Assembly (NCBI RefSeq): GCF_035594765.1
Contig: NW_026943819.1
Coordinates: 1,488,001-1,552,000, forward strand
Length of the DNA: 64,000 nt
DNA from: Anolis carolinensis
Lineage: Eukaryota
Direction: 5' to 3'
Part shown: in pieces, positions 1,055-42,946 of the stretch
How the letters are laid out: each line of letters begins with the position of its first letter
How positions within the stretch are numbered: position 1 is the first letter of the stretch
Program-made: the position numbers and the translations under genes
The notes under the pieces: generated by a model
The model's input: only the letters and a program-made list of their open reading frames with translations
Database searches by the model: none
What the model was told of the DNA's origin: nothing

Positions 1055-1094
<40 letters not shown>

Positions 1095-2441: not shown

Positions 2442-2490
<49 letters not shown>

Positions 2491-3674: not shown

Positions 3675-3706
<32 letters not shown>

Positions 3707-6583: not shown

Positions 6584-8719
6584 TCAGAAGGCCCTGCCCC
6601 CCAGGCCGGCATAGACCTCCCGCTGGCCTTTCCGGATAGGCTGCAAGAGCAAAGAGGGAGGGTGGCTCAGTTGAAAGGACCATAAGCCAGAAAATAGTAA
6701 ACTTTTCCCTATGTAGCTTTGCCTCTGCACATGCCCCTCCCTTCCTGTGAGCTGGTACCTTTCTAAGGGGCTGTTCCAAAGAGAGAAGAAAGCTCAGAGT
6801 AAACAAGTGAGGTCACAGGCATCAAGTAGGTGTGGAAGGTGAGGAAGACCCTCGGCCATTGGTCAATTTTAGATAAGCCAAAGGTATATAATCTTTGTTT
6901 GCTACGCACATGTTGCGACGGCCATTTGCATGGTACGGACCCACTAAAGTGGGTGCCTACAGCTGTTTTGCCTTATCATCAGCTGTGATAACAATAAAAG
7001 GCTTGTTTTATTGCTCTCTTGGGATTCTCTCCTTTTCTTCCCCTCCAGGCTAGTCTCCAACACAGTCGCTGGGACCTTCTCTCAATAGGGGATGCTACCC
7101 AATGGCTTTTTGAGAGACCCCCAAGTGGCTGCCTGGGGAGGCCGCGGGGTCTGGCTAGCCACCCCAGACCCCACCTCCTGCTTCTGGGGGTGTCTCTCTC
7201 TTGGGAGGGGTCTCGGTCCCAAGCAGCCTCCTCCTGCCCTCCTCTCCCCCCAACAAGCCAGTCAGGACTTACCTCGTAGTCTGGGTTTGGGACGGGTGGG
7301 GGGTGATCCGCCTTCGGGCCTGGAACGGAAACCAAAGTGAGTTGGGGGATATGGGGCAGCTGCCTCCCAGCCCCAGTCCTTGGGGAGCCCTCCTTCTCAT
7401 TGGGCAAAAGGCTTCCTCCTTCAACAAGCTGGAATGTGTCCAGAGGAGGACGACTCAAAGGATCAAAGGTCTAGAGAACAAGCCCTATGAGGAGCTGGAT
7501 GGCCATCTGTTGGAGGTGCTTTGAATGTGATTTTTGTTAATGTGGGATTTGTGTATTGATAGTGTTTAAATCCAATTTGTGCCATGCTTGTATTGCAACT
7601 GATTGCATCATCAAGAATGTACCATAGTGTGGAAAGAGTTAATTGCCAAGAAGCTGTGATGACCTTGATGTGTGGCTGGAACTAGGGAGTATCCAGACAC
7701 AAGTATGTGTGTATATTGATTGCGTCAGTTCAGTCGAGTTCTGTCTGCCTAGAGTTTGAGTCAAGTCCTGTGTTCATCTATCGTCTGTTAGTCTGTGTTG
7801 ATACAGTAAAACTTTGTAAATAGTTTTACCAACGTCTCTGAGTGTCTCTTCGTTCCATCAGACTGCTAATACTCTGGCAATTGTCCTGCTTCTTGGCAGA
7901 ATGGGGTTGGACTGGACTCTTTCAACTCTAGGATTCTAGGATTCTCCATAGCCATAGTCTTCCTTCCCCAGCTAACGGGAGAAATCTCAGGACAAGAGCA
8001 TCGCCTTGAGAGCAATGTGAATGAAATGTGTGTGGACATTTTTGTGAGAGATTGTTGTGAACTCTCCTTTTCCTGCCTCCAACTCTTATGTGAACCCCAT
8101 GCTCTTTGCAACCATGAGTGCATCACACTTGATGACACTGTGATGGAATTTCCCCTTGTGACATTGCCAAATCCCTAGTCTGCGGTTCATACAATCATAA
8201 GAGTTGGAAGAGACTTTGTGGGCCATCCAGTCCAACCCTGTCCTGCCAAGAAGCAGGAAAACCGCATTCAAAGCACCCCCGACAGATGGCCATCCATAGC
8301 CTCCAAAGAAGGAGCCTCCACCACACTCCAAGACAGAGAGTTCCATTGCTGCTCTCTCTTTCACACAGGATGAATTACTTTTGATCTTGCAAGGGAAGGG
8401 GATGCAAAGTACTGTATATACTTGAATATAAGCCGACCCGATATAAGCCGGGCCACCTAATTTTACCACAAAAAAACTGGGAAAACATTGACTCCAGTAT
8501 AAGCCGAGGTTGGTAAATTTGAGAAATAAAAATAGATACCAGTAAAATTACATTAATTGAGGCATCAGTAGGTTAAATGTTTTTGAATATTTACAAAAAG
8601 CTCAAATTTAAGATAAGACTGTCCGACTCTGATTAAATCATTATTCTCATCTTCTTCAATGTAAATGTGCTTATGTGTCCTTTTAATAATAATAATAATA
8701 ATAGAGTAAAATAATCCAT

Positions 8720-8778
<59 letters not shown>

Positions 8779-17167: not shown

Positions 17168-19938
17168 GAAGACCTGGCTCTGGCTCACGAATGGGACCCT
17201 GAAGAAGGAGACAGAAGGCCTGATCCTTGCAGCCCAGGAGCAAGACATCAGGACAAAGGCAATCAAGGCCAAGATCGAAAAATCAGCTGATGACCCAAAA
17301 TGCAGACTGTGCAAGGAAACTGATGAAACCATGGATCATATCCTCAGCTGCTGTAAGAAAATCGCACAGACAGACTACAAACAGAGGCACAACCATGTGG
17401 CCCAAATGATCCATTGGAACTTATGCCTCAAGTCCCACCTCCCAGAAGCAAAGAACTAGTGGGATCACAAAACAGCAAAGATAATGGAAAATGAGCACGC
17501 AAAAATACTGTGGGACTTCCGAATCCAGACTGACAAAGTTCTGGAACACAACACACCAGACATCACAGTTGTGGAAAAGAAAAAGGTTTGGATCATTGAT
17601 GTTGCCATCCCAGGTGACAGTCGCATTGACGAAAAACAACAGGAAAAACTCAGCCGCTATCAGGACCTCAAGACTGAACTTCAAAGACTCTGGCAGAAAC
17701 CAGTGCAGGTGGTCCCGGTGGTGATGGGCACACAAAAGATCTCAGCCGGCATTTGGAAACAATAGACATTGACAAAATTACGATCTGCCAACTGCAAAAG
17801 GCCACCCTGCTGGGATCTGGGCGCATCATCCGAAAATACATCACACAGTCCTAGACACTTGGGAAGTGTTCGACTTGTGATTTTGTGATATGAAATCCAG
17901 TAGAGCTATCTTGTTTGCTGTGTCATAATAAAATAATAAGTTTATTTGTATCCTGCCACCATCTCCCCCGGAGGGGACTCGGGGCGGCTCACAGAAATAT
18001 TAGATACAAAACAATAACAATGTACAATACATCAATAAACAATAACATGCACCAATTATAATATTTAAAACATTGACCAGAAAAATGAAATACACTTACT
18101 GAAATCATAGAATTAAAAACAGTGACGTTGCAATGATAGATTAGCAAAGTGCACATTAAAAGTTGCGAACTCAGAAACATAGATAAAGTGCCACAGATTC
18201 GTTTGTAATGTAACACGATCTCACGATTTTACAAAATGCATTGGGTTGTGGGTGAACTACAACTCTCATCGTGCCAGTTTAACCCCCTGTAACTCCATCA
18301 GTACAGTAGAGTCTCATTCATCCAATGTTCTGGATTATCCAACGCATTTTTGTAGTCAATGTTTTCAATACATCATGATATTTTGGTGCTAAATTCGTAA
18401 ATACAGTAATTACTACATAGCATTACTGCCTATTGAACTACTTTTTCTGTCAATTTTTTTTGTATAACATGATGTTTTGGTGCTTAATTTGTAAGATCAT
18501 AACCTAATTTGATGTTTAAATAACCTAATTTGATGTTTTCCTTAATGCCTCCTTATTATCCAACATATTCGCTTATCCAACATTCTGCCGGCCCGTTTAT
18601 GTTGGATAAGTGAGACTCTACTGTACTTAAAGTTTGTGATGTTGGACAAGTTCTCTCTGGAGGCACCATCGGTGGGGTTGAGTGTGCTCTCTGTCCGTAG
18701 GGTAAACTATAACTCCCACTATGGTGAGTCCGTCCCTTCAGACCCCTCCACTAGGTTGAGTTAAGTCGAGGAGGTTCCATGTGCCAAGTTTGGACCAGGT
18801 CTATCATCGGTGGAGGTCACAATTTCCCTGGTTGTGGGTGAACTACAACTCCCAGAAAGGAAGATCAGTTCTCCCAAACTCTTCCAATAATCACATCTCA
18901 GCATATCAGGTATGTGTGTTCCTTCCTGGGCCAGAGTGCAACTCTCCTTGCTTTCTTCCAAGGTCTCTGGACGGTGTCTTCCATGGAGATCTACACGCCG
19001 GGCTCCTTGGAGGTTCTGAACGGGACCGACGTGCGGCTGAAGTGCACCTTCCGCAGCCGGGAGCCCGTCGGGCAGCGGCTGGTCATCTCCTGGGACTTCC
19101 AATCCCGGGACAAGAGCCAAACGGAGTTTGTAAGTTGCCTTCTGCCTTCGGGATGGGAGCCTGTTCTTTCAGGAGACGTTTGATGGCTGTGGGGGGCGGG
19201 GGTTCCTCCACAAGTAGAGGAATAAGATGATGCTGACTCTACACCCTGATCAAAGTGGCCCCTGGTCAAAAAAGGTTGGAAACCACGGGTTTAAATGAAT
19301 AATAATAATAATAATAATAATAAAACTTTATTTATAACCCGCCACCATCTCCCCAATGGGGACTCGGGGCGGCTTACATGGGGCCATGCCCAGACACGAT
19401 ACAATATAACAAAATAAAACAATATATCATAACACAATATAATAGTACAAAAATAATCATATACATTACAACACAAATCAGAGCAGACAGGGCGGGCCAC
19501 ATGAACATTTAATTAAAAACTCGGGAGAGAGAGGCATATAAATAAAGAGAACAGGGGTATAAGACGGAACAGTCCAAACAGTCCAAAGAATAAAATCCAA
19601 GGGGAGTAATCAAAGGTATATAACATTTACTCCCCGAAGGCACATCGAAAAAGCCACGTTTTTAGATCTTTCTTAAAAGCCAATAAGGTGGGGGCTTGCC
19701 TGATCTCAGAGGGCAATGAATTCCACAGTCGGGGGGCCACAGCAGAAAAGGCCCTCTCTCTCGTTCCCACTTATATGAATCCATATAAGCACATATTAAA
19801 GTAGGAGTCTCCAAACCAGGGGTCCCCAAACTACAGCCCGCGGGCCACATGCGGCCCATTGAAGCCATTTATCCGGCCCCCACAGCACAAAGGCAGAAGG
19901 GGGTTGGGTTAAATGGCCCAAGGGGTCTCTTCCAACCC

Positions 19939-19994
<56 letters not shown>

Positions 19995-22579
19995 AACATT
20001 GAGGCTGGGAGGCCATCTGTCAGGGGTGCTTTGCTTGTGCTTTTGGTCCACAAAGGCAGAAAGGGGTTGGGCTAAATATATTATTATCATTATTGCTCGG
20101 TGGCCAGCTATAGTCCGGCCCTCCAGCGGTCTGAGGGATTGTAAACTGGCCTCCAGTTTTAAAAGTTTGGGGACCCCTGCTCCAAACTATGGCCTGTGGG
20201 CCTGATGTGGCACAACTTGACTATCTGATTGGCCCAAAATAAGTCCAGACTTCCCATTGAAGCACTGGCCAATTTATGTTGGTGGCGCAGTGAGCTGCTG
20301 AACTTGCTGACCGAGAGGTCGGTGGTTCTATTCCTGAGAGTGGGGTGAGCTCCTGCTGTTAGCCCCAGCTTCTGCCAACCTAGCAGTTCGAAAGCGTCGG
20401 AGCCCCCGGTGGCGTAGTGGATTAAAGCCTTGTGACTTTAAGGTTGGGTTTGCTGACCTGAAGGCTGCCAGGTTCGAATCCCACCCGGGGAGAGCGCGGA
20501 TGAGCTCCCTCTATCAGTTCCAGCTCCATGCGGGGACATGAGAGAAGCCTCCCACAAGGATGGTGGGAGGCTTCTCTCATGTGCCCGCATGGAGTTGGAG
20601 CTGGAGTTGGAGGGGACGTTGCCCAGGGCAAAGTCCCCTGGGCAACATCCTTGCAGAAGGCCAATTCTCTCACACCAGAAGTGACTCAGGTTGCTCCTGA
20701 CACGAAAAAAAAGTTCGAAAGCAAGCAAATGTGAGTAGATGAATAGGTACCGCTCTGGCGGGAAGGTAACATTGGTGCTCCATGCAGCCATGCTTGTGAC
20801 CACATGACCTTGGAGGTGTCTACGGACATCGTCCAGCCCTTCAACACTGTTNNNNNNNNNNNNNNNNNNNNNNNNNNNNNNNNNNNNNNNNNNNNNNNNN
20901 NNNNNNNNNNNNNNNNNNNNNNNNNNNNNNNNNNNNNNNNNNNNNNNNNNNNNNNNNNNNNNNNNNNNNNNNNNNNNNNNNNNNNNNNNNNNNNNNNNNN
21001 NNNNNNNNNNNNNNNNNNNNNNNNNNNNNNNNNNNNNNNNNNNNNNNNNNNNNCAGGATCAAGCCTATCCGCCGCAGACGGGCCGCTTCTCGGGCAGAGT
21101 CACCTGGGACGGCAATGCATTCAAGAGCGACGCCTCCATCATGCTCTGGAACGTCGGCCCCGGGGACAATGGGACCTTCTTCTGCCACATCAAGAACCCC
21201 CCGGACGTCGATGGGGTGGCCGGAGAGATCGAGCTGAGCGTCGTCCTGAAAGGTCCGCCCGAGCGGGAGACGGAGGGTGAGGGGAGGGGGCCAAGGGCAT
21301 GGGCACCCCCTCCCCACATACACACCCTGCTTCTTCCCTTTTCTCCTCCTCACAGTGAGCTTCTCGGAGATCCACGTTTTGGCCCTGACCATCGGTGGGG
21401 CCTGTGCTCTGATGATTGCCGTGGTGGTCGTGGTGGTGGTCTGCCGGCAGCGACGGAAGGCCGGGAAGGACCAGGCGGAGGAGACGGAGATGTAAGTGCC
21501 AGGGGGTGTGTGAGGTTCTCTTCTTCAGCACCAAGACACTCTGGGTAGATTCAAACAGATTTATTGTACGGAATACCAGAATCTTCTCTGTAGCCCATTT
21601 ATATAGGGGCTCTCACATACCAGAGGGCAATTGAGGTTTTTATGGCTGGCCAGTTTTATGGCTGGCATCTGTTCTTTGTCAGAAAGCATCAAGACACATG
21701 CTGGGTAGATTCAAACAGGTTTATTGTACGGAATACTAGAATCTTCTCTGTAGCCCATTTATATAGGGGCTCTCACATACCAGAGGGTAATTGAGGTTTT
21801 TATGGCTGGCCAGTTTTATGGCTGGCATCTGTTCTTTGTCAGAAAGCATCAAGACACACGCTGGGTAGATTCAAACAGGTTTATTGTACGGAATACCAGA
21901 ATCTTCTCTGTAGCCCATTTATATCGGGGCTCTCACATACCAGAGGGTAATTGAGGTTTTTATGGCTGGCCAGTTTTATGGCTGGCATCTGTTCTTTGTC
22001 AGAAAGCATCAAGACACACGCTGGGTAAATTCAAACAGGTTTATTGTACGGAATACTAGAATCTTCTCTGTAGCCCATTTATATAGGGGCTCTCACATAC
22101 CAGAGGGCAATTGAGGTTTTTATGGCTGGCCAGTTTTATGGCTGGCATCTGTTCTTTGTCAGAAAGCATCAAGACACACGCTGGGTAGATTCAAACAGGT
22201 TTATTGTACGGAATACTAGAATCTTCTCTGTAGCCCATTTATATAGGGGCTCTCACATACCAGAGGGAATTTGAGGTTTTATGGCTGGCACCTGTTCTTT
22301 GTCAGCGCTTGCTCTGTGTCCGGAGATGTCATAAGATCGGAGATCATGACATCGTGGGATCGAGGGGGCAATGGGGCAGCGGGCCTTGTTGGTGGGGTGC
22401 TGGGTCTCTCTTTGGTGCAAAGGGGTCCTTATGGGCCAAGCCCCCGCCTCATCCCTTGGCTGCCTCTTCTGTCCTGACTTCTGCTCTTTGTCTCCCCAAA
22501 CGCCAGGCCGGAGAAGGAGAAGCTGCGCAGAGTCCCGGAAGAGGAGAGGGAGGCCACACTGCCCGGAGGGGAGGCCTGA
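13534..22579 (+). CDS. MPZL2: Myelin protein zero-like 2 (EVA1), 5 coding exons, about 212 aa
   Basis: Exons 13534-13585, 18963-19129 (167 nt), [gap]21054-21252, 21356-21491, 22507-22579. IgV domain [56 protein letters not shown], followed by [17 protein letters not shown]. About 12 nt at the start of exon 3 fall in the N gap. Confidence 0.92.
14708..16160. repeat. Diverged minisatellite with (TAA)n spacers, MPZL2 intron 1
   Basis: About 7 copies of AACCTGAAAGCCTATCAGCCCCAGCCCATTCCCCACAG..TCCACCTCTCCTTCGGCTCAGGTA. Confidence 0.8.
16591..17927 (+). mobile_element. R4/Dong-clade non-LTR retrotransposon, 3' part, with internal tandem duplications
   Basis: CRLC..DHILSCC zinc knuckle and the PD..D restriction-like endonuclease ([15 protein letters not shown]); flanked by (TAA)n; one in-frame stop. 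Confidence 0.85.
19817..20179. mobile_element. hAT-superfamily MITE; larger copy at 34695-36188, partial copy at 1-145
   Basis: TIR CAGGGGTCCCCAAACT with 8-bp TSD CTCCAAAC; the second copy has TSD (T/C)TTTGGAG. Confidence 0.85.
20852..21053. other. Assembly gap; further gaps at 50123-50311 and 51043-51358
   Basis: Runs of N. Confidence 1.
21532..22305. repeat. 160-bp tandem repeat, about 4.8 copies, MPZL2 intron 4
   Basis: Unit starts CAAGACAC..CTGGGTAGATTCAAACAG at about 21532, 21690, 21850, 22010 and 22170. Confidence 0.95.
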
Positions 22580-26520: not shown

Positions 26521-26612
26521 AAATGCCTTATGCCAACCAGCTGTGGATAGACCAACTTGGTCTTTTCCAGTATGCCAGCTATAGCTGCTATTGCAGTGTA
26601 AATGGGTAGAAA

Positions 26613-26666
<54 letters not shown>

Positions 26667-27627: not shown

Positions 27628-28325
27628 ATGGGGGCCGAGCCGCGCCGAGCCCGGACCCCCCTCCTGCCGGGGCTGCGGATCCTCCTTCTCGGTGAGGGGG
27701 GGGAGCATATGGGGAGGGGGGCGAGCCAGGTGGTGGGGAAACCCTCCCACCTGGAGCCCTTGGAAGAGCGAGAGGGGGGGAGGATGATGTCTGATGAAAG
27801 CCCGACATCCACCGGCCCTCCCGCCTTCTCGAATGGGAAAGGGACTCTTCGGAATTGTCCAGGGCTCCCTAAACTGGGGGTCCCTGCCCCCCTCCCCAAA
27901 CCCCACCTTTGTCAACAGGAAAAATATCCCCAACGCCCCCTCGTGGCCCTTTGAGATAGCACAGCGGGTCTCTTGTGCTTTGTTTACAATGGTGCTCAAC
28001 AGGAAAATTGACTTGTCTAGCAAGCCTTGCAGATGCTGGTTTGTTGTCACTGGGTTTAACTCAGCTATGGGCAAATTTGGACCCTCCAGGTGTTTTGGAC
28101 TTCAACTCCCACCATTCCTAACAGCCTCAGGCCCTTTTTTTTTTTACAGCAGCTGAGGATATGATCCATCAGTTTCCTTGCACAGTCTGCAGTTTGGGTC
28201 ATCAGCTGATTTTTCGACCTTGGCCTGAATTGCCTTTGTCCTGATGTCTTACTCCTGGACTGCAAGGATCAGGCCTTCTGTCTCCTTCTTCAGGGTCCCA
28301 TTCATGAGCCAGAGCCAGGTCTTCC

Positions 28326-28356
<31 letters not shown>

Positions 28357-31300
28357 TATTATTATTATTATTAATTGCCTTTGTCCTGATGTCTTGCTCC
28401 TGGGCTGCAAGGATCAGGCCTTCTGTCTCCTTCTTCAGGGTCCCATTTGTGAGCCAGAGCCAGGTCTTCTCCTTATCAGCTTTTCCTTCAATTTTGTCAA
28501 GGAACTTTCCATGCATTGTTTTGTTGTGCCATCTGTCAGCTCTAGTTTGTAGTGCGGTTTTCTTGTACTGATTCTTTGTCTACTGGGACCCTGAAGAAGG
28601 AGACAGAAGGCCTGATCCTTGAAGCCCAGGAGCAAGACATCAGAACAAAGGCAATTAAGGCCAATTGTGTCGGCAGAGAAGTCAGTGGCCCCAATCCAAG
28701 CCCGGTTTCAGTACTAAGTTGATGGTCAAAGGGGGACTGGTTGGTAAAACTCCCCAGTATTGTGTCATCCTATAATGTATTAGAGACTTGAAGTAACTTT
28801 GGGCAATGGTTACCTAGTGGTGAGGTCACAGCAGTATCTTTGATTTTTGTACCTAGGGGTCTGATGGGGGAGAGAGCCACTGGCTTTGTTTTGGGGAAGG
28901 GTCTTTGTCCCCTCTGAGGCTCAGTGGGGTCACCTTTGTGTCTCTCGGCAGCAGCCGTGGCCGGAGCCCGCTCCTTGGAGATCCAGGTTGACCCCAGAGT
29001 CCAGGCCTTTGTGGGGGAGCCGGTGACCCTCAAGTGCTGGTTCAGGTCCTCCGCCCCCCTCACCGAGAAGCTGACCGTTGACTGGACCTTCCGACCACGA
29101 GCCGGGGGCAGCGTGGAGCCCGTGAGTGCAGGCGGAGGGGTGGGGAAGGCAGGCCTCTGAGATCCAAGTTGACCCACTTGACACCTCTGCTGCCCCTCCC
29201 CAGGTCTTCCACTACCAGTCCCAGGCCTTCCCAGCACAGGGGGGCACCTTCCGGGGCCGTGTCCTCTGGGCCGGAGACGTCAGCAAGAGCGATGCCTCCA
29301 TCCGCATCTTGAATCCCTCGCTGGACGACAACGGGACCTTCACTTGCACTGTAAGGAATCCTCCAGACGTGCAGCACAACATCCCCCAGACGCTGTTGAC
29401 CGTCACTCTCAGAGGTGAGGCCCTGCTTCTGGGAAGGAGAACTCCTACTGAGAAGTCTGTGTGTGATCAGGGTGAAATGCAGGCTTTAGATCGGAGAGAA
29501 GTGCCAGCAGTTGACGAGAATATTTTGGATTTCAATATTCATCCGTTAGCAACAGGGAAATATCTATTTCTCTTAGGAATCAACCTTCAGCTGAAGGGGA
29601 GTTTTCCCATGATATCGGATTAGGACTCTGCAGGGAGAGAGTGAAGGATTGATTAATTGGGCTTAAATTAAGTTCCTGTTTCAGCTCTCAAGTTTATGAT
29701 TCACGTTTCCTGTGTTTGCCTATGTTCCTGGACAGGACTGTAGCGAGGGGGGGGGGAGGTTTTAGGGGTTCAACCCCCCTCCCCCCCCCGAAATTTTTCA
29801 GGTTAAAAAAAAAACCCTGGTTTACTCATGAATTTTAATTGGTTAACCAAATCCCCATGCTAAGTCTATGAGATGTAAAACATTAAGAGTCCCTCCAGGC
29901 ATTATCTCAAGCAGATATTGACAGGTCTGAACCTGGGGGGCAGCTGGGTCAGGAGTTCAACCCCCCCCCCGAAATTTTCAAAACCCCTCCCGAAATGTTT
30001 TTCTGGCTACGGCCCTGTTCCTGGATGAGTTTAGCTTTGGAAAAAGTTCCTGCTTTCATGCTTATGAATTTATGCCCGTGATCCTGACTTCCTTGATTTC
30101 ATGTACTTTGCCATTTTTGGGCTACTGTTCTTTTGTATATGGACTGCTGCTATTTTATAACTTATCTTCTACTATTCTTTTGGGAAATGCTCTTTCCCTC
30201 CCTTTTGTATATGCTTTCTAAAACAAACTGTTGTAGTTAGTACTACTGGACTTTGGTGTGGCCGGGCGAAAAGGTGTCTTGAGGTTGGAGGGCAACACTG
30301 ACCCTCTTCGATCTGGCCTCCTGCCCAGGTGCCTCCTTCCAACTGACCTCTGCCGGACTGCTCTCCCTCCTGGTCTTCCTCCCTTCGGCTGTGGTGGTGG
30401 CCCTGCTGCTGGTCCGGATGGGAAAGAAGTCTGGGCTGCTGAAAGCCAAGAAAAGGAAGTTTGGCTACAAGAAGTCCTCCATCGAAGTCTCCGATGAGTA
30501 AGGAACTCATTCCCTTTTTCCTGGCTGGGGGTTTTGTGGGGTTCGCCTTATTTATTTATTTCCTGGTGGGTTTTGTGGATCCACCCGCAGCTCCATTCTG
30601 CAATTCCCCAGCACTTTAATGGGAACAATAGTTTATTTATTTATTTATTTATTTATTTGCAGTATTTATATTCCGCCCTTCTCACCCCGAAGGGGACTCA
30701 GGGCGGATTACAATGAACACATATATGGCAAACATTCAATGCCAACAGACAAACAACGTACAGTATAGACAGACACAGAGGCATTTTTTACATTTTTCCA
30801 ACTTCACGATTCCGGCCACAGGGGGAGCTGTTGCTTCACCGTCCACTAGAGACTGTACTTCCTCATTCCTTTCCGGCATGTTGCTGGCAGTTTTATGGTG
30901 TTGTAAATTAGTTAAACTAGCCTCCCCGCATAAAGCGTATCTAAATTTCCCTACTTGACAGATGCAACTGTCTTTCGGGGCTGCATAGGTCAACAGCAAG
31001 CCGGGCTATTTAATGGTCAGGGGCTTAACCCGACCCGGGCTTCTACTCATGACCTCTCGGTCAGTAGTGATTTATTGCAGCTGGTTACTAGCCAGCTGCG
31101 CCACAGCCCGGCCTTTAGTTCGGGTATCTACCTCTCCCTGATTATAACTGACACTATTTACACTTTCTCTGGCCCAGTTCTTTTTTGGAGCCAACCCAGG
31201 ATTTTGTCATAGTATATTTATTATTATTGTATGTGACCTCATTTGTTTTATGACTTGTTTTATTGTTGATTGACTTGTTTTATTGTTGTGTTTTTATATT

Positions 31301-31976
31301 ATCTGTTGCCTGGGCTTGGCCCCATGTAAGCCGCCCCGAGTCCCTTTGGGGAGATGGAGCGGGGTATAAAAATAAAACAAGATAGATATGCTGGATTTTG
31401 TATCACAAAATCACAAGTCAAACACTTCCCAAGTGTCTAGGACTGTGAGATGTATTTTGTCAAGGAACTTTCCATGCAATGTTTTGTTGTGCCAGCTGTC
31501 AGCTCTAGTTTGTAGTGCGGTTTTCTTGTACTGATTCTTTGTCTGCTTCTTCTTGTTCTTCTTCTTCTTCTTCTTATTATTATTATTATTATTCCCCTCC
31601 AATTCTCTTGCACTCTCTCTCAGCCCAGAGCCTCCTGGATGCCGGGAAAAGCTGGCCAGATGCTGCCTGCGGTGCCTGGTAAGTGGAACCCGCATTTGTC
31701 TATGCATTTGCTTAAGCGGTTGAGGGAGAAAAGGAAAGGGCCTGAGGCCAGGAATTGTGGGAGTTGGAGTCCAAAACACCTCTAGGCCCAAAATTTGCCC
31801 ATGCCTGCTATATAGCAAAATGTGCTGTATAACCCAGGAACAAAAATGGTGTTGCATTCTGGGATAGGCTGGATATTAGGGTGGATATTCTCTGACCAAG
31901 CTCCCGCCTGCACCCATTTCCTCCTCTCTCTTTTCTGCTTCCTGTTCAGGACACAGATGATGATGATCCCTACTGA
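27628..31976 (+). CDS. MPZL3: Myelin protein zero-like 3, 6 coding exons, about 230 aa
   Basis: Exons 27628-27691, 28955-29121 (alternative NAGNAG start 28952), 29204-29414, 30329-30497, 31624-31678, 31950-31976. Motifs LEIQVDPRVQAFVGEPVTLKC, NPPDVQHNIP, LLSLLVFLPSAVVVALLLVRMGKK, GYKKSSIEVSD and the C-terminal CLRCLDTDDDDPY. Confidence 0.93.
29733..30017. mobile_element. hAT-type MITE in MPZL3 intron 3
   Basis: CAGG..GTAGC TIR, perfect 8-bp TSD TTCCTGGA. Confidence 0.8.
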
Positions 31977-32247: not shown

Positions 32248-32253
32248 AATAAA
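32248..32253 (+). terminator. Probable MPZL3 polyadenylation signal; other candidates are MPZL2 24474-24479, SCN2B 45958-45963, SCN4B 62771-62776
   Basis: AATAAA in unique (non-repeat) sequence downstream of each stop codon. Confidence 0.55.
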
Positions 32254-32649
32254 CCTCTCTCTCCAGCTCAGTCTGCTTTCCTTTTGCTTTGGTGGGAGGA
32301 ATAAGAGGGGGGGGGGGATCTTGGGAGACAAGGGTGAAGCCTGTGCAGACCCCCAGGGTGAGATAATGGGGCATGCGCTGCTGCAGGGGGTCCGTGATTT
32401 CCATTGCATTCTGTAACCTCAGCTTTGAATGACTTTGAACATTAGGAAGAACTTCCTCACTGTGAGGGCTGTTCAGCAGTGGAACTCTCTGCCCCGGAGT
32501 CTGGTGGAGGATCCTTCTTTGGAGGCTTTGAAGCAGAGGCTGGATGGCCATCTGTCGGGGGTGCTTTGAATGCGATTTTCCTGCTTCTTGGCAGAATGGG
32601 GTTGGACTGGATGGCCTTTGGATCCCTTCCAACTCTAGTCTCCGGTGAT

Positions 32650-33669
32650 ATATCTATCTACCTGTCTATCAATTTATCTGTCTATCAATTTGGCTGGCTG
32701 TCTATCATCATGTCTATCTGTCTAACTATCTATCATATCTGTCTGTCTATCTATCATCATGTCTATCTATCTATCTATCTATCTATCATATCTGTCTGTC
32801 TGTCTATCATATCTATCTATCTATCATCATGTCTATCTATCATATCTGTCTGTCTGTTTGTCTATCAATTTATCTGTCTGTCTACCATCTGTGTGTATCA
32901 TCATGTCTATCATACCTATCTGTCTGTCTGTCTATCTAGCATCATATCTATCATAGCTGTCTATCTATCAATTTATCTGTCTATCATATCTATCTGTCTA
33001 TCATCATGTCTATCTATCTATCTATCTATCTATCATATATATCTGTCTGTCTATCTATCTATCTATCATATCTGTCTGTCTATCATCATGTCTATCTATC
33101 ATATCTGTCTGTCTGTCTATCATCATGTCTATCATATCTATCTGTCTGTTTGTCTATCAATTTATCTGTCTGTTTGTCTATCAATTTATCTGTCTATCAT
33201 ATCTGTTTGTCTATCTATCATGTCTATCTATCTATCATATCTATCTGTTTGTCTATCATATCTATCTATCTATATCTATCTGTTTGTCTATCTATCATCA
33301 TGTCTATCTATCTATCTATCATATCTGTCTGTCTATCATCATGTCTATCTATCATATCTGTTTGTCTGTCTATCATCATGTCTATCATATCTATCTGTCT
33401 GTTTGTCTATCAATTTATCTGTCTGTTTGTCTATCAATTTATCTGTCTATCATATCTGTTTGTCTATCTATCATGTCTATCTATCTATCATATCTATCTG
33501 TTTGTCTATCATATCTATCTATCTATATCTATCTGTTTGTCTATCTATCATCATGTCTATCTATCTATCATATCTGTCTGTCTATCATCATGTCTATCTA
33601 TCTATCTTATCTGTCTGTCTGTCTATTTATCATATCTATCTATCTGTTTGTCTGTCTATCTATCATCAG

Positions 33670-33702
<33 letters not shown>

Positions 33703-33722
33703 CCTACCATCTCTACCATCTC
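32650..33722. repeat. Complex (TCTA/TCTG/TCA)n microsatellite with block duplications
   Basis: About 1.07 kb of low-complexity sequence; source of the spurious 418, 341 and 235 aa ORFs. Confidence 0.95.
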
Positions 33723-33769
33723 TCTGTGTATTTAAAGGTGCTTGGAGGGCTGGCTTGGCCCTTGCCCTT

Positions 33770-34620
33770 GCTCCCCGCACCCGCCCCTCCCTCCCTCCCT
33801 CCCTCCCTCCCCCTCACTTCCGCCAACCATAGGCTCGACCTCCTCCCCCTCCCCCTCCCAGTCCCCCCTCCCATCCCGTGCGCAGCCCCCCTCCCGAACC
33901 GCCCGGCCATCTTGGCGCAGGAGAAGCGAGAAGGAGAAAGAGACAGAGGAGGAGGAGGAGGAGGAGAACCCGCCCCCTTGGAGCCCCCCACCCTCCCTCC
34001 CTCAATCACCAGGATGGCTGCGCGCGCCTGACCTCCCCCCTCCCTCCCTCCCTCCCTCCTTCTCCAAGACCCTCCCCTTTTCCCCCCAATTGCCGGGATG
34101 CTCCGCGACGCCCCTCCGGCCTTGGCCGCCCTCCTGGGGGGCGTCCTGTGCCGGCTCCTCTTCGCCTTCCTCTCCAGCGGTAAGTGGGTGGCCTTTGGGG
34201 GAGGGGGAGGAGGGAGGAGGGGGGGAGACCCCTTGGAGTGACGCAGCAGGGGCCACAACCCCCCCCCCCCCTTCCTCCTCAAGGATTGGACAGAGTTGCT
34301 TCTGGGGAGCTTTGGAGGGTCGCTCTGATGGGGGTGAGGGTGGGGAGGGGTCCAGGAGCCCCTCGATCCCAAGCAGAGAAGGAAGCAAAGAGAGAGAGGG
34401 AGGGGGGGGACCTTCAAGGGGAGGGGGAGGCGGGGCCTGGGCCTGGGCCAGCACCCTGGTCAGCACCCTTCTGCAGAGACTGCGGCAAAAAGGGAGAGAA
34501 AGGAAGGAAGGAAGGAGGGCAAGGAGGTCTCCCAGGCCATTGGCCCCTAGTGTCCTGCCAGGCTGCGCATGCGCCCCCCTTCCCAGGCCCCTTCCCCTTG
34601 CGAAATAGCCCTCCCCTGCC
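33770..34620 (+). promoter_or_regulatory. SCN2B CpG-rich promoter and first-intron control region
   Basis: GC boxes, ETS CACTTCCG at about 33815, YY1-like GCCATCTTG 33906-33914, RE1-like site 34447-34467, NRF1 TGCGCATGCGC 34564-34574. Confidence 0.6.
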
Positions 34621-35129
34621 CTGCCAGGAATGGGGTCATATGTCTGGGAGGGGAACAAGGCTCAGGGCCAGGAAAAACAAGCAAAGTTTTGGAGCAGGGG
34701 TCCCCAAACTATGGCCCGTGGGCCACATGCGGCCCATTGAAGACATTTATCCGGCCCTCGCAGTGGCGGCTGCCTCCTCCTCTTGGCTTGTTTATCATGG
34801 TATTTTAATCATTATTTAATTAATTATTAAGGGGTGCTTTGCTAGTGCTTTTGGTGCACAAAGGAAGAAGGGAGTTGGACTAAATGGCCCAAGCGATTTC
34901 TTCCAACCCTCATTATTATGATTATTATTATTGACAGAAGGACACAGCATAACACAGCAAATGAGATAGATATGCTGGATTTCGTATCACAAAATCACAA
35001 GTTGAACACTTCCCAAGCATTTAGGACTGTGTGATTATTGTATGACACAGCAAACAAGATAGACATGCTGGATTTCGTATCACAAAATCACAAGTCGAAC
35101 ACTTCCCAAGTGTCTAGGACTATGTGATG

Positions 35130-35191
<62 letters not shown>

Positions 35192-35527
35192 ATTGAGGCT
35201 GGGTGGCCATCTGTCAGGGGTGCTTTGCTTGTGCTTTTGGTGCACAGAGGCAGAAGGGGGTTGGACTCAATGGCCCAGAGGGTCTTCTAACCCTCTTATT
35301 ATTATTATTATTATTAATTATTATTATAATTTTATTGTATGACACAGCAAACAAGATAGATATGCTGGATTTAATTTCACAAAATCACAAGTCGAACACT
35401 TCCCAAGTGTCTAGGACTGTGTGATGTATTTTCGGATGATGCGCGTAGATGCCAGTAGGGTGGCCTTTTGCAGTTGACAGATCGTAATTTTGTCAATGTC
35501 TATTGTTTCCAAATGCCGGCTGAGATC

Positions 35528-35578
<51 letters not shown>

Positions 35579-37704
35579 ATTGAGGCTGGGTGGCCATCTG
35601 TAAGGGGTGCTTTGCTTGTGCTTTTGGTGCAAAAAGGCAGAAGGGGTTGGACTAAATGGCCCAAGGGGTCTCTTCCAACCCTCTTTATTATTTTTATCAT
35701 GGTTGTGATTATAATAATAATAAATAATAATAAAACTTTATTTATATCCCGCCACCATCTCCCCATGGGGACTCGGGGCGGCTTACATGGGGCAGTGGCC
35801 CAAACAACATAAGAACAAAATATAAGCAACACAATACAATCACAACATAAAAAGATAAAACAATAATACAATGTATCAATATAAACAACAATACAAGATA
35901 AAAATTTCATTTAAAACACATAATGGTAAGACCGTAATAAAAACAGGATAAATTATTAAAAACCCACTGGGGCTGATTAATTAATGACTATCTCCGAAGG
36001 CCTTATTATTATTAACATTGAGGGTGTATTTGTTCCCCTTTTGGTTTTTTTTACTTCAAAATAAGATATGTGCAGTGTGCATGGGAAATTGTTCATAGTT
36101 TTTTTAATAAAAAAAACGATAGTCTAGCCCTTCAGCTGTCTGAGGGACCGTGAACTGGACCCCAGTTTAAAAAGTTTGGGGACCCCTGCTTTGGAGGGCC
36201 TTCTGCTGCCAGATCTCAACCCAGGTGTGGTCACCCTTTATTAGGGGACACCACATAGTGAAACCCTGCTGTTTACTAGCCCATAAGTTGTCAGATACAT
36301 CCATCTCAAAGATTTTGTCTCTCATCACCTTCTTGTCCAACTGCAATAGGGTTGTTGTTATTGTTGCTGCTGCTGCTCAGTCACATAATTGTTTCTGACT
36401 CTTCATGACTTCGTGGACCAGTCTAGGCCAGAGCTCCCTGTCAGCCGTCAAGGTCCAGCCAGTCACTTCAAGGATACCGTCCATCCATCTCGCCCTTGGT
36501 CGGCCTCTCTTCCTTTTTCCTTCCTTTTTCCCCAGCATCATGATCTTTTCCAAGCTTTCCTGTCTCCTCATGATGTGGCCAAAATACTTCAGCTTTGCCT
36601 CTAACGTTCTTTTTTCCAGTGAGCAGCCACAGGGCATTATTTCCTGGAGGCTGGACTGGTTGGATCTTCTTGTGGTCCAAGGCACTCTCAGGATTTTCCT
36701 CCAACACCAGAGTTCAAATGATCAAAGGTCTGGAGAACAAGCCCTATGAGGAGCGGCTTAAAGAGCTGGGCATGTTTAGCCTGCAGAAGAGAAGGCTGAG
36801 AGGAGACATGATAGCCATGTACAAATACGTGAAGGGAAGTCATAGGGAGGAGGGAGGGAGCTTGTTTTCTGCTGCCCTGCAGACTGGGACGCAAGGGAAC
36901 AATGGCTTCAAACTACAGGAAAGGAGATTCCACCTGAACATCAGGAAGAACTGCCTCACTGTGAGAAGGGCTGTTCAACTCTCTCCCCCGGACTGTGGTG
37001 GAGGCTCCTTCTTTGGAGGCTTTTTAAGCAGAGGCTGGATGGCCATCTGTCGGGGGTGCTTTGAATGCGATTTCCTGCTTCTCGGCAGGGGGCTGGACTG
37101 GATGGCCCATGGGGTCTCTTCCAACTCTACTATTCTATGATTCTATGATTCTATAAAAGCGTCTATCTTCCTTTGCTCAGGCTTCCTTATGGTCCAGCTC
37201 TTGCATCCATAGGTCACTATGGGGAATCCCATGGCTTTGACTATGCGGACCTTCCTTCGTTGCCAGTGGGATGTCTCTGCTCTTCACTACAGTAGAGTCT
37301 CACTTAGCCAAGCTAAATGGGCCGGCAGAAGCTTGGATAAGCGAATATCTTGGATAATAAGGAGGGATTAAGGAAAAGCCTATTAAACATCAAATTATGT
37401 AATGATTTTACAAATTAAACACCAAAACTTCATGTTATACAACAAATTTGACAGAAAAAGTAGTTCAATAGACAGTAATGTTATGTTGTAATTACTGTAT
37501 TTACGAATTTAGCAACAAAATATCACGATATATTGAAAACATTGACTACAAAAATGGCTTGGATTATCCAGAGGCTTGGATAAGCGAGGCTTGGATAAGT
37601 GAGACTCTGTTTTATATTTTATTATATTGTATTGCTTTGGGCATGGCCCCATGTTAGCCACCCCGAGTCCCCGCTGGGGAGATGGTGGCGGGGTATAAAT
37701 AAAG

Positions 37705-37764
<60 letters not shown>

Positions 37765-40700
37765 TGTATTTTGTCCAGGTTGGCCATTGCTCTCCTCCCA
37801 AGATGGAAACATCTTCTGATTTCCTGGCTGCAATGATCTTCGCGCCTAGAAATATAAAGTCTGTCACTGCCTCCACATTTTCTCCTTCTATTTGCCAGTT
37901 AGCAATAGGTGTAGTTGCCATTGTTGTTATTGTTAACACATCGACATAGTGATGGCGCAGGGCCAACCAATATTGCTCCATCAAGCACTGCTTTGTTCTA
38001 CTCTCCCCCTGAAGACACAGGTCCACAGTCTGGACTGATCACTGACCCTGGAACCCCAGGTGTCGGTGGTGGCCAGGAGCACCTTTGCACAATTAAAACT
38101 CATGCGCCAGCTGGGCCCGCACCTTGAGATGCCAGATCTGGCCATGGGAGTTCACGCCTTAGTCACATCCCGTTTGGACTACTGCATTGCTCTCTATGTG
38201 GGGCTGCCAGTTTGGAAGCTTCAACTAGTTCACAGATGGGCAGCCAGATTAATAACAGGAGCCCTGTACAGGCAGAGATCCACTCTTCTAAAGGCCATCT
38301 AGTCCAACCCCCTTCTGGCTTCATGCAGGAAAAACATAATCAAACCTTCCTTGCTTAGTTTCTCCATACCTCACAACCTCTGAGGATGCCTGCCATAGAT
38401 GTGGGCGAAACGTCAGGAGAGAATGCTTCTGGAACATGGCCATACAGCCTGGAAAACATACAACCACCCCATAATCAAAGCATCCCCAAAAGATGGCCAT
38501 CCTACCTCTACTTATCTGCTGTGAGCAGATCTGCGTTTTTCCATCTACGTCAGGCTAGGCAACTGGCTCCCTACCTATCTAGGAACGACCTGGCGACGGT
38601 GATCCAGGCGACGGTCATCTCGAGGCTCGACTACTGTAACGCCCTCTACATTGGCCTTCCTCTGTCAGTGATCCGGAAACTGAAGCTGGTGCAGAATGCG
38701 GCGGCTCGTCTTCTCGCCGGGGTGCCGGCGAGGTGGCGTATCACCCCAATTCTTCAACAGCTGCACTGGCTGCCGATCGAGTACCGGATTACTTTCAAGA
38801 TACTGGTACTAACTTTCAAGGCCTTACATGGTCTGGGGCCGGCGTACCTGAGGGCCCGCTTATCCCCCTACCAACCCCAGAGATTACTTCGGTCCAAAGA
38901 CCAAAATTTGCTGGAAGTCCCTAACATACGGACTTATCCTTTGTCTTCTACTAGGCAGAGAGCCTTCTCGATTGTAGCCCCTCAATTGTGGAATGCCTTG
39001 CCAGTTGAAACTCGAACCACCCGAGACCTACTTGCCTTTCGGAAAGCCTGCAAAACCTTGCTCTTCCGACAAGCTTTCAATGGGTGAAAAACTCGGGGCT
39101 ATGTCTGTTTTTATTGTTGCTTTTATTGTTGTTTTTATTGTTATTTTAAAGCCAAGTGTATTGTTTTAATCTATTTTTGTAAACCGCTCTGAGCCAAACT
39201 GGGAGTAGCGGTATATAAGTTTAATAAATATATATAAATAAATAATAGCAATAATAATCATCATCATGATGATTATGATGATTATTGGCCCCTTGCTAAA
39301 CCCATCCTTGGCTCCTTCTCTCACAGTGCCCAGCATCCAGGCCATGGAGGTGATGGCCCCGCCCACCATCTACGCCCTCAACGGCTCCTCCATCCGCCTC
39401 ACCTGCACCTTCAACTCCTGCTACCAGGTGGAGAAGAAGCAGTTCTCCCTCAACTGGACCTACCAGGGTTGTGACAACTGCACAGAAGAGCTGGTGAGTT
39501 TTATCGCAGTGGCAGATCCTCCCTGGGCTTTGTTTTCCTCTCCTCCCCAGGTCCAAGCAGAGACTGGGCAAAGCAGGGGAACTAGACCAATGATGGGCAA
39601 CCTTTTGCACTTGGTGTGTCAAAATTCACCAAAATACCTAGCATGACTTGGGTGGTGTGTCACTTTGAGAAAAAAAAACACCATAATTTTGCAATATGTA
39701 TAGTTTAAATAACAAAAATGTATAATCTATATATAAAAGAGTGATGGCATCACGGCGACCCACAAAACAACAAAACTACAGGCCCCCCAACCTCGAAATT
39801 TGACAACACAACCCATCATCCACGCCTCTAGGTTGATACAACAAAAAGAAAAGAAAAATAAAGTCCTAATTAGAGAGAGAGGAATAATTGTTTTTATCCA
39901 ATTGCTGCCAGTTAGAAGGCTAAGCTCCTCCAACTTGGTCTCCTAGCAACCCAATAAAAAATAATAAAAAACACTAAAAAATTAATACAATAAAATACTA
40001 TAATAACAGAAAATAACTAAAAATAATACAAGAAAATAATAAAATATAATAAATAAAAATATAACTTACAATAAAATTAATAAAAAATTGCAAATAACGT
40101 CAAATAAAAATTACACAACAATTTTTAACCAATACCACCACCACTTTGCCACAGCAACGCGTGGCCGGGCACAGCTAGTATATATATATATAAATGTAAT
40201 GTGCATAATTCCCATGGAGTAAACAACAAAACCACTGGACAAAATCACACCAAATTTGGCCACAAAAGACATAGTCATCCAATCAATCTGCAGGCAGCAG
40301 TGTGTCAGCAAAAATGACTAGGCGTGTCAGTGCTGACACGCGTGTCATAGGTTGGCCATCACTGAACTAGACCCTGGTCCAAGCAGAGATTGGGCAAAGC
40401 ATGGGAACTAGACCCTGGTCCAAGCAGGGGAGCGGGAAAAGCAGGGGGCCGGGCTGTGGCGCAGCTGGCTAGTAACCAGTTGCAATAAATCACTACTGAC
40501 CGAGAGGTCATGAGTTCGAAGCCCGGGTCGGGTTAAGCCTACGACCATTAAAAAAAAATAGCCCCGGCTTGCTGTTGACCTATGCAGCCCCGAAAGACAG
40601 TTGCATCTGTCAAGTAGGGAAAATTTAGGTACGCTTTATACGGGAGGCTAATTTAACTAATTTACAACACCATAAAACTGCCAGCAAAACACGAGGAAAA

Positions 40701-40915
40701 GGAACGAGGAAGTACAGCCACTACTAGACGGTGAAGCAACAGCTCCCCCTGTGGCCGGAATCGTGAAGCTGGAAAGATGTTAAAATGCCTCTGTGTCTGT
40801 CTAAAGTGAATGTTGTTTGTCTGTTGGCATTGAATGTTTGCCATATATGTGTTCATTGTAATCCGCCCTGAGTCCCCTTCGGGGTGAGAAAGAAGGGCTG
40901 AATATAAATATTGTA

Positions 40916-40960
<45 letters not shown>

Positions 40961-42946
40961 CAGGAAGCAGAGGGACTAGTGGATGGTGAAGCAACAGCTC
41001 CTCTTGTGGCCGGAATCGTGAAGCTGGAAAAATGTTAAATGCCTCTGTGTCTGTCTATACTGTATGTTGTTTGTCTGTTGGCATTGAATGTTTGCCATAT
41101 ATGTGTTCATTGTAATCCGCCCTGAGTCCCCTTCCGGGTGAGAAAGAAGGGCGGAATATAAATACTGTAAATAAATAAACTAGACCTGTTTCTCCGTCCC
41201 TTGCCAGTTCCTGCAGTTCAAGCTGAAGGTGATGCCCATGGAAGAGAACCGCTTTGGGGACCGCATCGAGTTCACTGGGAACCCCAGCAAGAACGACGTC
41301 TCCTTCACGCTCCGCAACGTGCAGCTGGAGGACGAGGGCACCTACCACTGCTACGTGATGAACCCCCCCGACCGGCACAAGGGCCACGGCAAGATCCAGC
41401 TCAGAGTCATCACCGAAGGTCAGGGCCTGGTCTTGGGGGTGCAGCCCCCCTTAAAGCCCTGGTCCAAGCAGGGAGCGGGCAACGCAGGGGAACCAGAGCA
41501 GGCCTGGGCCAACTTCGGCCCTCCCTCCGGGTGTTTTGGACTTCAACTCCCACCATTCCTAACAACCGGCTGCTAGGAATGGTGGGAGTTGAAGTCCAAA
41601 ACTCCCAAAGAGAAGGCCGAAGTTGGCCCATGCCTGAGCTAGGGGAAAGTCCCCAAGGCACCCTTGAATGAGAAGCACCCGCAACATCTTTCCTTTTTGT
41701 TTGCACTCTGCATCTGCTCCGGAGCTGTCGATGCCTCAGCTTTGAATGACTTTGCTGTGCATGAAGGAGCATACACTGTTATGTTACGTTGCAGAAGCAC
41801 TCTGTGATATTTATTTTTTGCAGTATTTTGTGTTATGTTTTGTTTGCTTGTGTCTTGTTTCTGTGCCTCTATCTAGGTCATCTCAGCAGGGAGAGACCCC
41901 CCAGTGCCATCTCTTTAAGGCTGAGAGAGTGTGACTTGCCCAAAGTGACGGGGATTCAGACCCTGGTCTTGCCCGACACTCAAATTATTCTGTCGGTTCA
42001 CTTTGGTTTGGGCAATAGTAATATAAGGCTCTTCCAGACAAAGCCCTATACCCCAGGATCTTATCCCAGGCTTCCTGCTTTAAAGTGGATTATATGAGTC
42101 CACACTGCCAGATAATCTGTGATAAGCAAAAAACTTGGCATCAATGTTTCATTGAAGGCTTGCATGGCCAGAATCACTGGCTTGTTGTGCATTTTCCGGG
42201 CTGTATGGCTATGTTCCAGAAGCATTCTCTCCTCACGTTTCTCCAACATCTATGGCAGGCATCCCCAGAGCATGTCACAACCTCTGAGGATGCCTGCCGT
42301 AGATGTGGATGAAACGTCAGGAGAGAATGCTTCTTGAACATAGCCACACAGCCCTGAATACTCACAGCAACCGAACCTGGGATCACATCCTGGGATATAG
42401 GGCCTTTCTGGAAGAGCCCTTAAGTGGGGTGTTGTGTGGTGTCCGGCCTGTGTGACCATTGCGCTTGAGCAGCATTTTCTCCTGACGTTTCGCCTGCATC
42501 TGTGGTTGAGATCACTGCTGAGTTTGCACCAACTTATCATTTGAGGCTCGAATTGCTTTTGTAATTTCCTCATGGCTGTCATGCTGCTTTCGTGTATTTT
42601 ACCATTGTTATTATATGATTGTTTGGAGGCCGTGTGTTTTGCCTTGGCGCCGTTCCGCATTCTGCTCAGGAATGAGACCCCCCCCCCTCTCCAACTCCAT
42701 TCTGGGCGCTGACCCCATTGTGGGGGTCCCGTGTGTGTCTCCACAGAGCCCCCGGAGCGCGACTCCACGGTGGCGGTGATTGTGGGGGCCACGGTGGGGG
42801 GCTTCCTGGCCGTGGTCATCCTGGCGCTGGTGGCCGTCAAGTGCGTCCGGCGGAAGAAGCAGCAGCGGCTCAACACCGACGACCAGAAGACGGAGGAGGA
42901 GGGCAAGACCGACGGAGAAGGGAACCCCGAGGAGGGGGCCAAGTAG
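34098..42946 (+). CDS. SCN2B: Voltage-gated sodium channel beta-2 subunit, 4 coding exons, 219 aa
   Basis: Exons 34098-34179, 39327-39493, 41208-41418, 42747-42946. Motifs MEVMAPPTIYALNGSSIRLTCTFNSCY (alpha-linking Cys retained), CDNC, PPERDSTVAVIVGATVGGFLAVVIL and RRKKQQRLNTDDQKTEEEGKTDGEGN. Confidence 0.96.
36370..37920 (-). mobile_element. BovB/RTE LINE 3' fragment interrupted by CR1 (36719-37153, +), MITE A and an L2-type tail
   Basis: Peptide PWTTRRSNQS..LKYFGHIMRR..LEK.MMLGK.EGKRKRGRPR.RWMD. The CR1 insert encodes LENKPYEERLKELGMFSL and ends in (ATTCTATG)n. Confidence 0.85.
38505..39245 (+). mobile_element. L2-clade LINE 3' fragment (ORF2 C-terminus); older L2 piece at 38030-38280
   Basis: Peptide SRLDYCNALYIGLP..LKLVQNAAARLL..LHWLPIEYRITFKIL. 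Confidence 0.85.
39588..40364. mobile_element. hAT MITE containing Helitron-like insertion(s)
   Basis: TIR CA(A/G)TGATGG(G/C)CAACC with 8-bp TSD AACTAGAC. Inner element 39726-40178 has 5'-TC, a subterminal hairpin GCCAC..GTGGC and 3'-CTAG, inserted between A and T. Confidence 0.75.
40448..41178 (+). mobile_element. tRNA-derived SINE with L2-like tail and duplicated 3' half; inverted copy at 30635-31112
   Basis: Head GCCGGGCTGTGGCGCAGCTGG, box GAGTTCGAAGCCC, (TAAA)n tail. Confidence 0.75.

What the first reader, a model, noticed from the sequence alone, without database searches (positions are those of the whole stretch)
32254..33900. JAML (AMICA1) is missing from its syntenic slot between MPZL3 and SCN2B
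Seen: only about 1.6 kb with no N gap separates the MPZL3 poly(A) signal from the SCN2B promoter. It holds a CR1 fragment and a 1-kb TCTA microsatellite, with no Ig exons. Established: the mammalian order is CD3D-CD3E-MPZL2-MPZL3-JAML-SCN2B-SCN4B; JAML costimulates epithelial gamma-delta T cells through CXADR; squamates are reported to lack TRG/TRD. Inference: JAML was co-eliminated with the gamma-delta T-cell lineage, part of the same remodelling as the two CD3 changes.
Basis: partly seen in the sequence, partly recalled or inferred. Interest (0 to 1): 0.75.

Follow-up and report, generated by a model that had tools for sequence, protein, structure and literature searches.

The report
Lizards lost immune receptor gene JAML
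An immune-cell receptor gene, JAML, is missing from its usual chromosomal spot in this lizard and is not annotated there in the bearded dragon, while tuatara, turtles, crocodilians, birds and mammals keep it, so it was likely deleted in lizard ancestors, possibly after they lost the gamma-delta T cells that it helps activate in mammals.

Summary
MPZL3 and SCN2B are intact, and 1,844 gap-free bases separate the MPZL3 poly(A) signal from the SCN2B start. Most of this is a repeat fragment and a 1-kb TATC array. Tuatara, turtle, crocodilian, bird and mammal JAML queries find no JAML exon there or elsewhere in the window. Fused bird gene models show the order MPZL3-JAML-SCN2B, so the slot is not only mammalian. 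In the bearded dragon's NCBI annotation MPZL3 and SCN2B are consecutive genes and no gene is named JAML, which makes a mis-join unlikely. A JAML profile search listed 120 of 126 hits: birds, mammals, turtles, crocodilians and tuatara, but no squamate. That search would miss many diverged copies, so loss across all squamates is likely, not shown. In mammals JAML also serves neutrophils, monocytes and CD8 cells, and squamates keep butyrophilins. Verdict: a real, apparently unreported gene loss with an unproven cause.

The parts
27628..31976 (+). MPZL3 coding exons (27628-27691, 28955-29121, 29204-29414, 30329-30497, 31624-31678, 31950-31976), 230 aa; left flank of the JAML slot
   Evidence: AG/GT splice model; a 624-nt contig joins exons 2-3-4; groups with bird and camel MPZL3 domains
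32248..32253 (+). AATAAA, likely MPZL3 poly(A) signal
   Evidence: sequence; use not shown
32254..34097 (.). Empty JAML slot, 1,844 nt, no N, no Ig-like exon
32436..32637 (+). High-copy retroelement 3' fragment (CR1-like; name recalled)
   Evidence: 90% to 59377-59575 and 86% to 36935-37129; summed contig depth of 1e5 to over 1e6
32651..33706 (.). Degenerate TATC/TCTA microsatellite with a 253-nt higher-order duplication
   Evidence: TRF; 207-nt exact internal repeat
33707..34097 (+). GC-rich likely promoter and 5' UTR of SCN2B
   Evidence: sequence; function inferred
34098..42946 (+). SCN2B coding exons (34098-34179, 39327-39493, 41208-41418, 42747-42946), 219 aa; right flank of the slot
   Evidence: splice model; best PDB hit is sodium channel beta-2, E 6e-29; tree
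18963..22579 (+). MPZL2 exons 2 to last (first exon not placed; an N gap cuts exon 3); context
51766..60995 (+). SCN4B, 223 aa; context
584..4501 (+). CD3 gamma/delta-type gene; context
6585..11360 (-). CD3 epsilon gene; context

Best explanation
JAML is absent from its slot between MPZL3 and SCN2B in this lizard, and it was likely removed by one old whole-gene deletion in a squamate ancestor after the split from the tuatara. Shown: the slot is empty here, is occupied in birds and mammals, and JAML exists in tuatara, turtles and crocodilians. Inferred: JAML sat in a same-strand tandem array of related single-pass V-domain genes; a deletion removed all its exons and spared both neighbours' regulatory ends. 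The repeat fragment and the microsatellite likely arrived later and are not the scar. The deletion is likely at least as old as the ancestor shared with the bearded dragon, and more likely than not sits on the squamate stem. It would have been fixed because selection on JAML was weak. [quoted passage not shown] The ligand gene CXADR, which has junction roles of its own, was kept.
For: There is no JAML trace in the interval or window with tuatara, crocodilian, turtle, bird or mammal queries. The crane model P0318 reads MPZL3-JAML-SCN2B in order; godwit P0265, fairywren P0150 and camel P0324 read MPZL3-JAML. In Pogona vitticeps (NCBI annotation) gene917_MPZL3, gene918_SCN2B, gene919_SCN4B and gene920_TMPRSS4 are consecutive; there is no JAML or AMICA1 in the all-gene table of 19,284 genes, and CXADR is present (PMC8049264). 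Tuatara P0383 is a true JAML: best PDB hit is mouse JAML, E 1e-22, it lies in the JAML clade at 96/98 and has the YITM tail motif. The profile search listed 120 of 126 hits: 52 bird, 53 mammal, 10 turtle, 3 crocodilian, 2 tuatara, 0 squamate. TRG and TRD deletions are squamate-specific and tuatara keeps both (PMC11754216).
Against: No genome was held, so a moved copy in this species was not excluded directly. Only two squamates have a read slot; the second rests on annotation numbering, which would look the same if JAML were there but unannotated. The 6 weakest hits were not listed and could be squamate. That search saw only proteins of 292 aa or more (chicken JAML is 289-294 aa). It listed no primate, marsupial or monotreme either. 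By simulation it catches only 22-46% of single-domain copies at 50% identity and 9-25% at 45%. The earlier profile search listed 120 of 166 and missed 17 known JAMLs above its cut-off.
Confidence: 0.68

Rival explanations
1. The reader's strong form (a special case of the best explanation): JAML was lost because gamma-delta T cells were lost, as one part of a dismantled epithelial T-cell surveillance module that also changed CD3.
For: The pattern on the tree matches so far: tuatara keeps TRG, TRD and JAML, and the lizards examined lack JAML. JAML-CAR costimulates resident gamma-delta T cells in mice (PMC4105846). The ligand CXADR is kept, as expected of a partner with other roles. The CD3 gamma/delta gene here has Ser in place of the transmembrane Asp.
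Against: It is one event on one long branch, so coincidence cannot be excluded. JAML is also on neutrophils, monocytes and some CD8 cells. Butyrophilins were kept. Reptile JAML has one V domain and no tested function. The tuatara models lack about 11 residues of the V domain and sit on a long branch, which may mean relaxation began before gamma-delta loss, or may be a model error. Nothing dates the CD3 changes.
Confidence: 0.3
2. The loss is younger and narrower (for example iguanians or toxicoferans only); other squamates keep a diverged JAML, so it is unrelated in time to the TRG/TRD deletions.
For: Both read slots are likely iguanian (species of the window from unchecked scan notes). Search sensitivity falls fast below 50% identity, 6 hits were unlisted, and tuatara JAML is already only 56% identical to tortoise in the V domain.
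Against: No squamate appeared among 107, 120 and 120 listed hits of three searches, although the collection holds squamate proteins (rattlesnake SCN2B) and the third search reached tuatara and 53 mammal clusters.
Confidence: 0.22
3. JAML moved elsewhere in the genome and survives.
For: No whole genome was held to exclude it. A moved copy could sit under a LOC number in Pogona.
Against: There is no JAML or AMICA1 symbol in the Pogona all-gene table, and only JAM2 and JAM3 match 'junctional adhesion' in its named cluster lists. No squamate hit came up in the protein searches.
Confidence: 0.06
4. Assembly mis-join: two TATC arrays flanking JAML collapsed into one and dropped the gene.
For: The array is 1 kb long with a 207-nt exact internal repeat, the assembly has N gaps nearby, and continuity across the array was not tested with reads.
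Against: An independent assembly of another lizard has MPZL3 and SCN2B consecutive. The left flank is continuous in contigs from two studies. No JAML exon is left on either side.
Confidence: 0.04

Closest known systems
Squamate deletions of TRG and TRD (Morrissey et al. 2022, as cited in PMC11754216; AMPH-STARD3NL interval in PMC12841164)
   Same: A clean genomic deletion of an immune gene between conserved flanks, with the gene kept in tuatara and archelosaurs.
   Different: Those remove the receptor loci and are reported across squamates. This removes an accessory costimulatory receptor, and only two squamate slots were read here.
Butyrophilins in squamates (PMC12841164)
   Same: A gamma-delta accessory gene family tested for co-loss in the same clade.
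   Different: The opposite result: butyrophilins were kept in all species tested, whereas JAML appears lost.
Mammalian JAML/AMICA1 (PDB 3mj6; beta/MPZ subfamily, PMC10506104)
   Same: Same slot between MPZL3 and SCN2B, same V-domain clade and Y-x-T-M tail motif in reptile and bird orthologues.
   Different: Mammals have two V-set domains; tuatara, tortoise, crocodile and emu have one. The window has none.

Membership tests
JAML orthologue (any sequence in the window) | V-set domain that falls in the JAML clade | tested here: not met
   The three window V domains tested (MPZL3, SCN2B, SCN4B) fall outside the JAML clade. MPZL2 was not in the tree; its exons score far below orthologue level.
JAML orthologue (any sequence in the window) | Cytoplasmic tail with the Y-x-T-M motif | tested here: not met
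   No significant hit to the tail part of the profiles in six frames; the motif is present in 11 of 11 outgroup JAMLs checked.
JAML orthologue (any sequence in the window) | Position between MPZL3 and SCN2B on the same strand | tested here: not met
   The interval has no Ig-like exon; the position is confirmed for birds by P0318.
JAML orthologue (tuatara P0383, outgroup control) | V domain in the JAML clade plus tail motif | tested here: met
   its genomic position was not seen
Co-eliminated gene (lost with the cell type it serves) | Kept in relatives that keep the cell type | tested here: met
   Tuatara, turtles, crocodilians, birds and mammals; tuatara keeps TRG/TRD
Co-eliminated gene (lost with the cell type it serves) | Lost on the same branch as the cell type | tested here: inconclusive
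   Two lizards read (window; Pogona); the protein search is only suggestive for other squamates
Co-eliminated gene (lost with the cell type it serves) | Function confined to the lost cell type | tested here: not met
   For mammals, from the literature: also on neutrophils, monocytes and some CD8 T cells (PMC4105846). No reptile or bird data were found.
Co-eliminated gene (lost with the cell type it serves) | Repeated independent co-loss, or relaxed selection dated after the cell loss | not testable with these tools
   There is a single event and no squamate remnant to date.
CR1 retroelement fragment (32436-32637) | Match to a CR1 consensus 3' end | not testable with these tools
   No repeat library was available. 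High copy number is shown; Pfam is blank; the name is recalled.

The most novel reading that the evidence does not exclude
All lizards and snakes are natural JAML knockouts: the gene was deleted on the squamate stem because gamma-delta T cells had gone. It would be the first accessory gene shown to fall with that lineage, and would imply that the ancestral single-domain JAML existed mainly to costimulate epithelial gamma-delta T cells, its myeloid and CD8 roles being later mammalian additions.
Probability: 0.3. Interest if true: 0.72.

Novelty: new member of a known kind. Interest (0 to 1): 0.5.

Why it matters
Squamates are the one large group of jawed vertebrates reported to lack gamma-delta T cells. 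The one accessory family tested so far, the butyrophilins, was kept. A lost JAML gives a contrasting case and makes a standing question testable: which partner genes depend on that T-cell lineage, and which have other jobs? It also bears on JAML's ancestral role, since reptile and bird JAML is a one-domain protein unlike the two-domain mammalian receptor now studied in wound healing and T-cell costimulation. If the loss proves narrower or unrelated, it is an ordinary lineage-specific gene loss.

Tried and rejected
No whole genome was held, so there was no genome-wide tblastn. Read contigs were laid only on 27600-32640; continuity across the array stays open. No RNA holder was listed as on record. 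The first two protein searches reached only birds and turtles among listed rows and are weak evidence of absence. The ESM Atlas gave taxa only to phylum. Rfam found nothing in 26000-36000. A fish protein named JAML-like (P0121) fell outside the JAML clade and was rejected as an orthologue. Weak interval matches (best E 0.18-0.3) were rejected as chance, and the only AG..GT candidates with a YxC motif were microsatellite translations. The GC-rich island at 47600-48220 and the N gaps between SCN2B and SCN4B were considered as a displaced JAML: only weak low-complexity hits (E above 0.3), and the gap contents cannot be read. Supplements that gave nothing usable: PMC10854053, PMC9203151, PMC10415409, PMC11948899, PMC8075977 (only 46,201 characters held), and PMC11260152 (a gecko marker list with MPZL3 but neither SCN2B nor JAML, uninformative). 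Unseen tables of these papers could bear on snakes and geckos. Morrissey 2022 was not held and may mention JAML. No complex prediction was sent: no binding claim is made.

Full report
Observation. The window reads CD3 gamma/delta (+), CD3 epsilon (-), MPZL2, MPZL3, SCN2B, SCN4B (all +). MPZL3 splices to 230 aa ending at 31976, and a 624-nt contig of a probable RNA run joins its exons 2-4. SCN2B starts at 34098 (219 aa). Between AATAAA (32248-32253) and that ATG lie 1,844 nt with no N. They consist of about 180 nt of unique sequence, a high-copy repeat fragment (32436-32637; CR1 by recall), a degenerate TATC array (32651-33706) and about 390 nt of GC-rich promoter-like sequence. The animal is a squamate by sequence: its SCN2B shares residues with rattlesnake against birds and mammals. 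Unchecked notes on the same genome call it the green anole.

Getting real JAML queries. The window's SCN2B exon 3 has mouse JAML as its best non-SCN2B PDB hit. A search of cluster representatives gave a fairywren model, P0150, that fuses MPZL3 to a JAML domain. From it I obtained bird and turtle JAML, then crocodilian, tuatara and mammal JAML. A 27-row V-domain tree puts tuatara, crocodilian, turtle, bird and both mammalian domains in one clade (96/98), and the window's MPZL3, SCN2B and SCN4B outside it. MPZL2 was not in the tree, and the chicken SCN2B row has a long branch, probably from a poorly cut slice. Reptile and bird JAML has one V-set domain (4 of 4 scanned) and mammals two (2 of 2). 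All 11 checked carry a Y-x-T-M tail motif.

No JAML in the window. tblastn with 16 proteins and two profiles gave significant hits only on paralogue V-domain exons. The best match inside the interval had E 0.18. There is no pseudogene remnant at this sensitivity.

The slot is ancestral. The crane model P0318 contains MPZL3, JAML and SCN2B domains in that order; godwit P0265 and camel P0324 contain MPZL3 then JAML. These are mis-fused gene models, but fusion needs same-strand neighbours (inference). Tuatara P0383 is a true JAML; its position was not seen.

A second lizard. In the supplements of PMC8049264 (Pogona vitticeps, NCBI pvi1.1 annotation; I saw methods passages and search-hit rows), gene917 is MPZL3, gene918 SCN2B, gene919 SCN4B and gene920 TMPRSS4. 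JAML and AMICA1 do not occur in the all-gene table of 19,284 genes, and CXADR does. That the numbers follow genome order is inferred from such runs. An unannotated or gap-hidden JAML would look the same, but two independent assemblies failing at the same spot is unlikely. The left flank here is continuous in contigs from two studies; the array itself was not bridged.

How wide is the loss? A V-domain profile (turtle and bird rows) searched against proteins of 292-2000 aa gave 126 hits, 120 listed: 52 bird, 53 mammal, 10 turtle, 3 crocodilian, 2 tuatara, 0 squamate (tally; unnamed rows placed by nearest named relative). It recovered 54 of 58 already known JAMLs of that length. Against over-reading this: 6 hits below 99 bits are unseen; no primate, marsupial or monotreme was listed either; chicken JAML straddles the length floor; and a rough simulation suggests only 22-46% of single-domain copies at 50% identity, and 9-25% at 45%, share enough words. 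The full-length profile search listed 120 of 166, all birds and turtles, and missed 17 known JAMLs above its cut-off, among them 5 of its own 12 rows. So squamate-wide loss is favoured, not shown.

Mechanism. Shown: an empty slot with intact neighbours. Inferred: one whole-gene deletion in a tandem array of related genes, old enough that no breakpoint or remnant can be read. The repeat fragment, 90% identical to another copy in the window, is likely a later arrival. Why it was tolerated is the open part. PMC11754216 (abstract and passages) states that TRG and TRD were deleted in squamates and kept in tuatara, which matches JAML's pattern so far. [quoted passage not shown] PMC12841164 (first of four parts and passages) reports butyrophilins kept in squamates, so co-loss is not automatic. 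A bioRxiv preprint (10.1101/2023.09.04.556186, one passage) notes other squamate immune losses such as kappa light chains in some species, so a background of unrelated losses exists. The tuatara JAML models lack about 11 V-domain residues and have a long branch, which could be a model error or earlier relaxation. I put the causal link at about 0.3.

Novelty. Full-text searches for JAML with squamate, JAML-MPZL3-SCN2B (25), AMICA1 with lizard (28), JAML-reptile-chicken (45), JAML with snake (46) and squamate immune gene loss (60) listed no paper that reports the loss, judged from titles, abstracts and the passages read. The three squamate T-cell or butyrophilin papers I could search do not mention JAML. 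Morrissey 2022 was not held, and subscription papers are not covered. PMC10506104 (passages) places JAML in the beta/MPZ subfamily. The scan's own notes held nothing on this loss.

Verdict. Observation confirmed; interpretation partly supported. This is a real and apparently unreported loss of JAML in at least two lizards and likely in squamates, of a known kind (lineage-specific gene deletion), with a plausible but untested link to gamma-delta T-cell loss. Interest 0.5.

Noticed in passing
P0383, P0248, P0369, P0189 versus P0328, P0356: Reptile and bird JAML has one V-set domain and mammalian JAML two; both mammalian domains fall inside the JAML clade, which suggests an internal duplication in mammals or loss of one domain in reptiles and birds.
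   Followed up: partly
tuatara P0382/P0383: Both models lack about 11 residues in the middle of the V domain that are strongly conserved in turtles, crocodilians and birds; a splice-model error or real decay.
   Followed up: partly
window 2541-2672 (+): The CD3 gamma/delta transmembrane helix has Ser where human CD3 delta has the acidic Asp; CD3 epsilon keeps its Asp.
   Followed up: partly
window 10099-10269 (-): The CD3 epsilon Ig exon is only about 57 codons, against 73 for the CD3 gamma/delta Ig exon.
   Followed up: no
window 52399-54217: A 118-bp tandem array, 15.4 copies at 99% identity, in SCN4B intron 1; other arrays at 21536-22289 (160 bp x 4.7) and 46111-47326 (155 bp x 7.7).
   Followed up: no
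window 47600-48220: A GC-rich promoter-like island between SCN2B and SCN4B, about 3.5 kb before the SCN4B ATG, with no Ig homology; possibly an upstream SCN4B promoter.
   Followed up: partly
window 58335-58584: SCN4B exon 3 is 250 nt, against 211 nt for the matching exons of MPZL3 and SCN2B, so it likely carries an insertion in the V domain; not compared with other SCN4B.
   Followed up: no
listing; P0121: No amphibian or fish JAML orthologue was listed and a fish 'JAML-like' protein lies outside the clade; JAML may be amniote-specific, but the search is too weak to say.
   Followed up: partly
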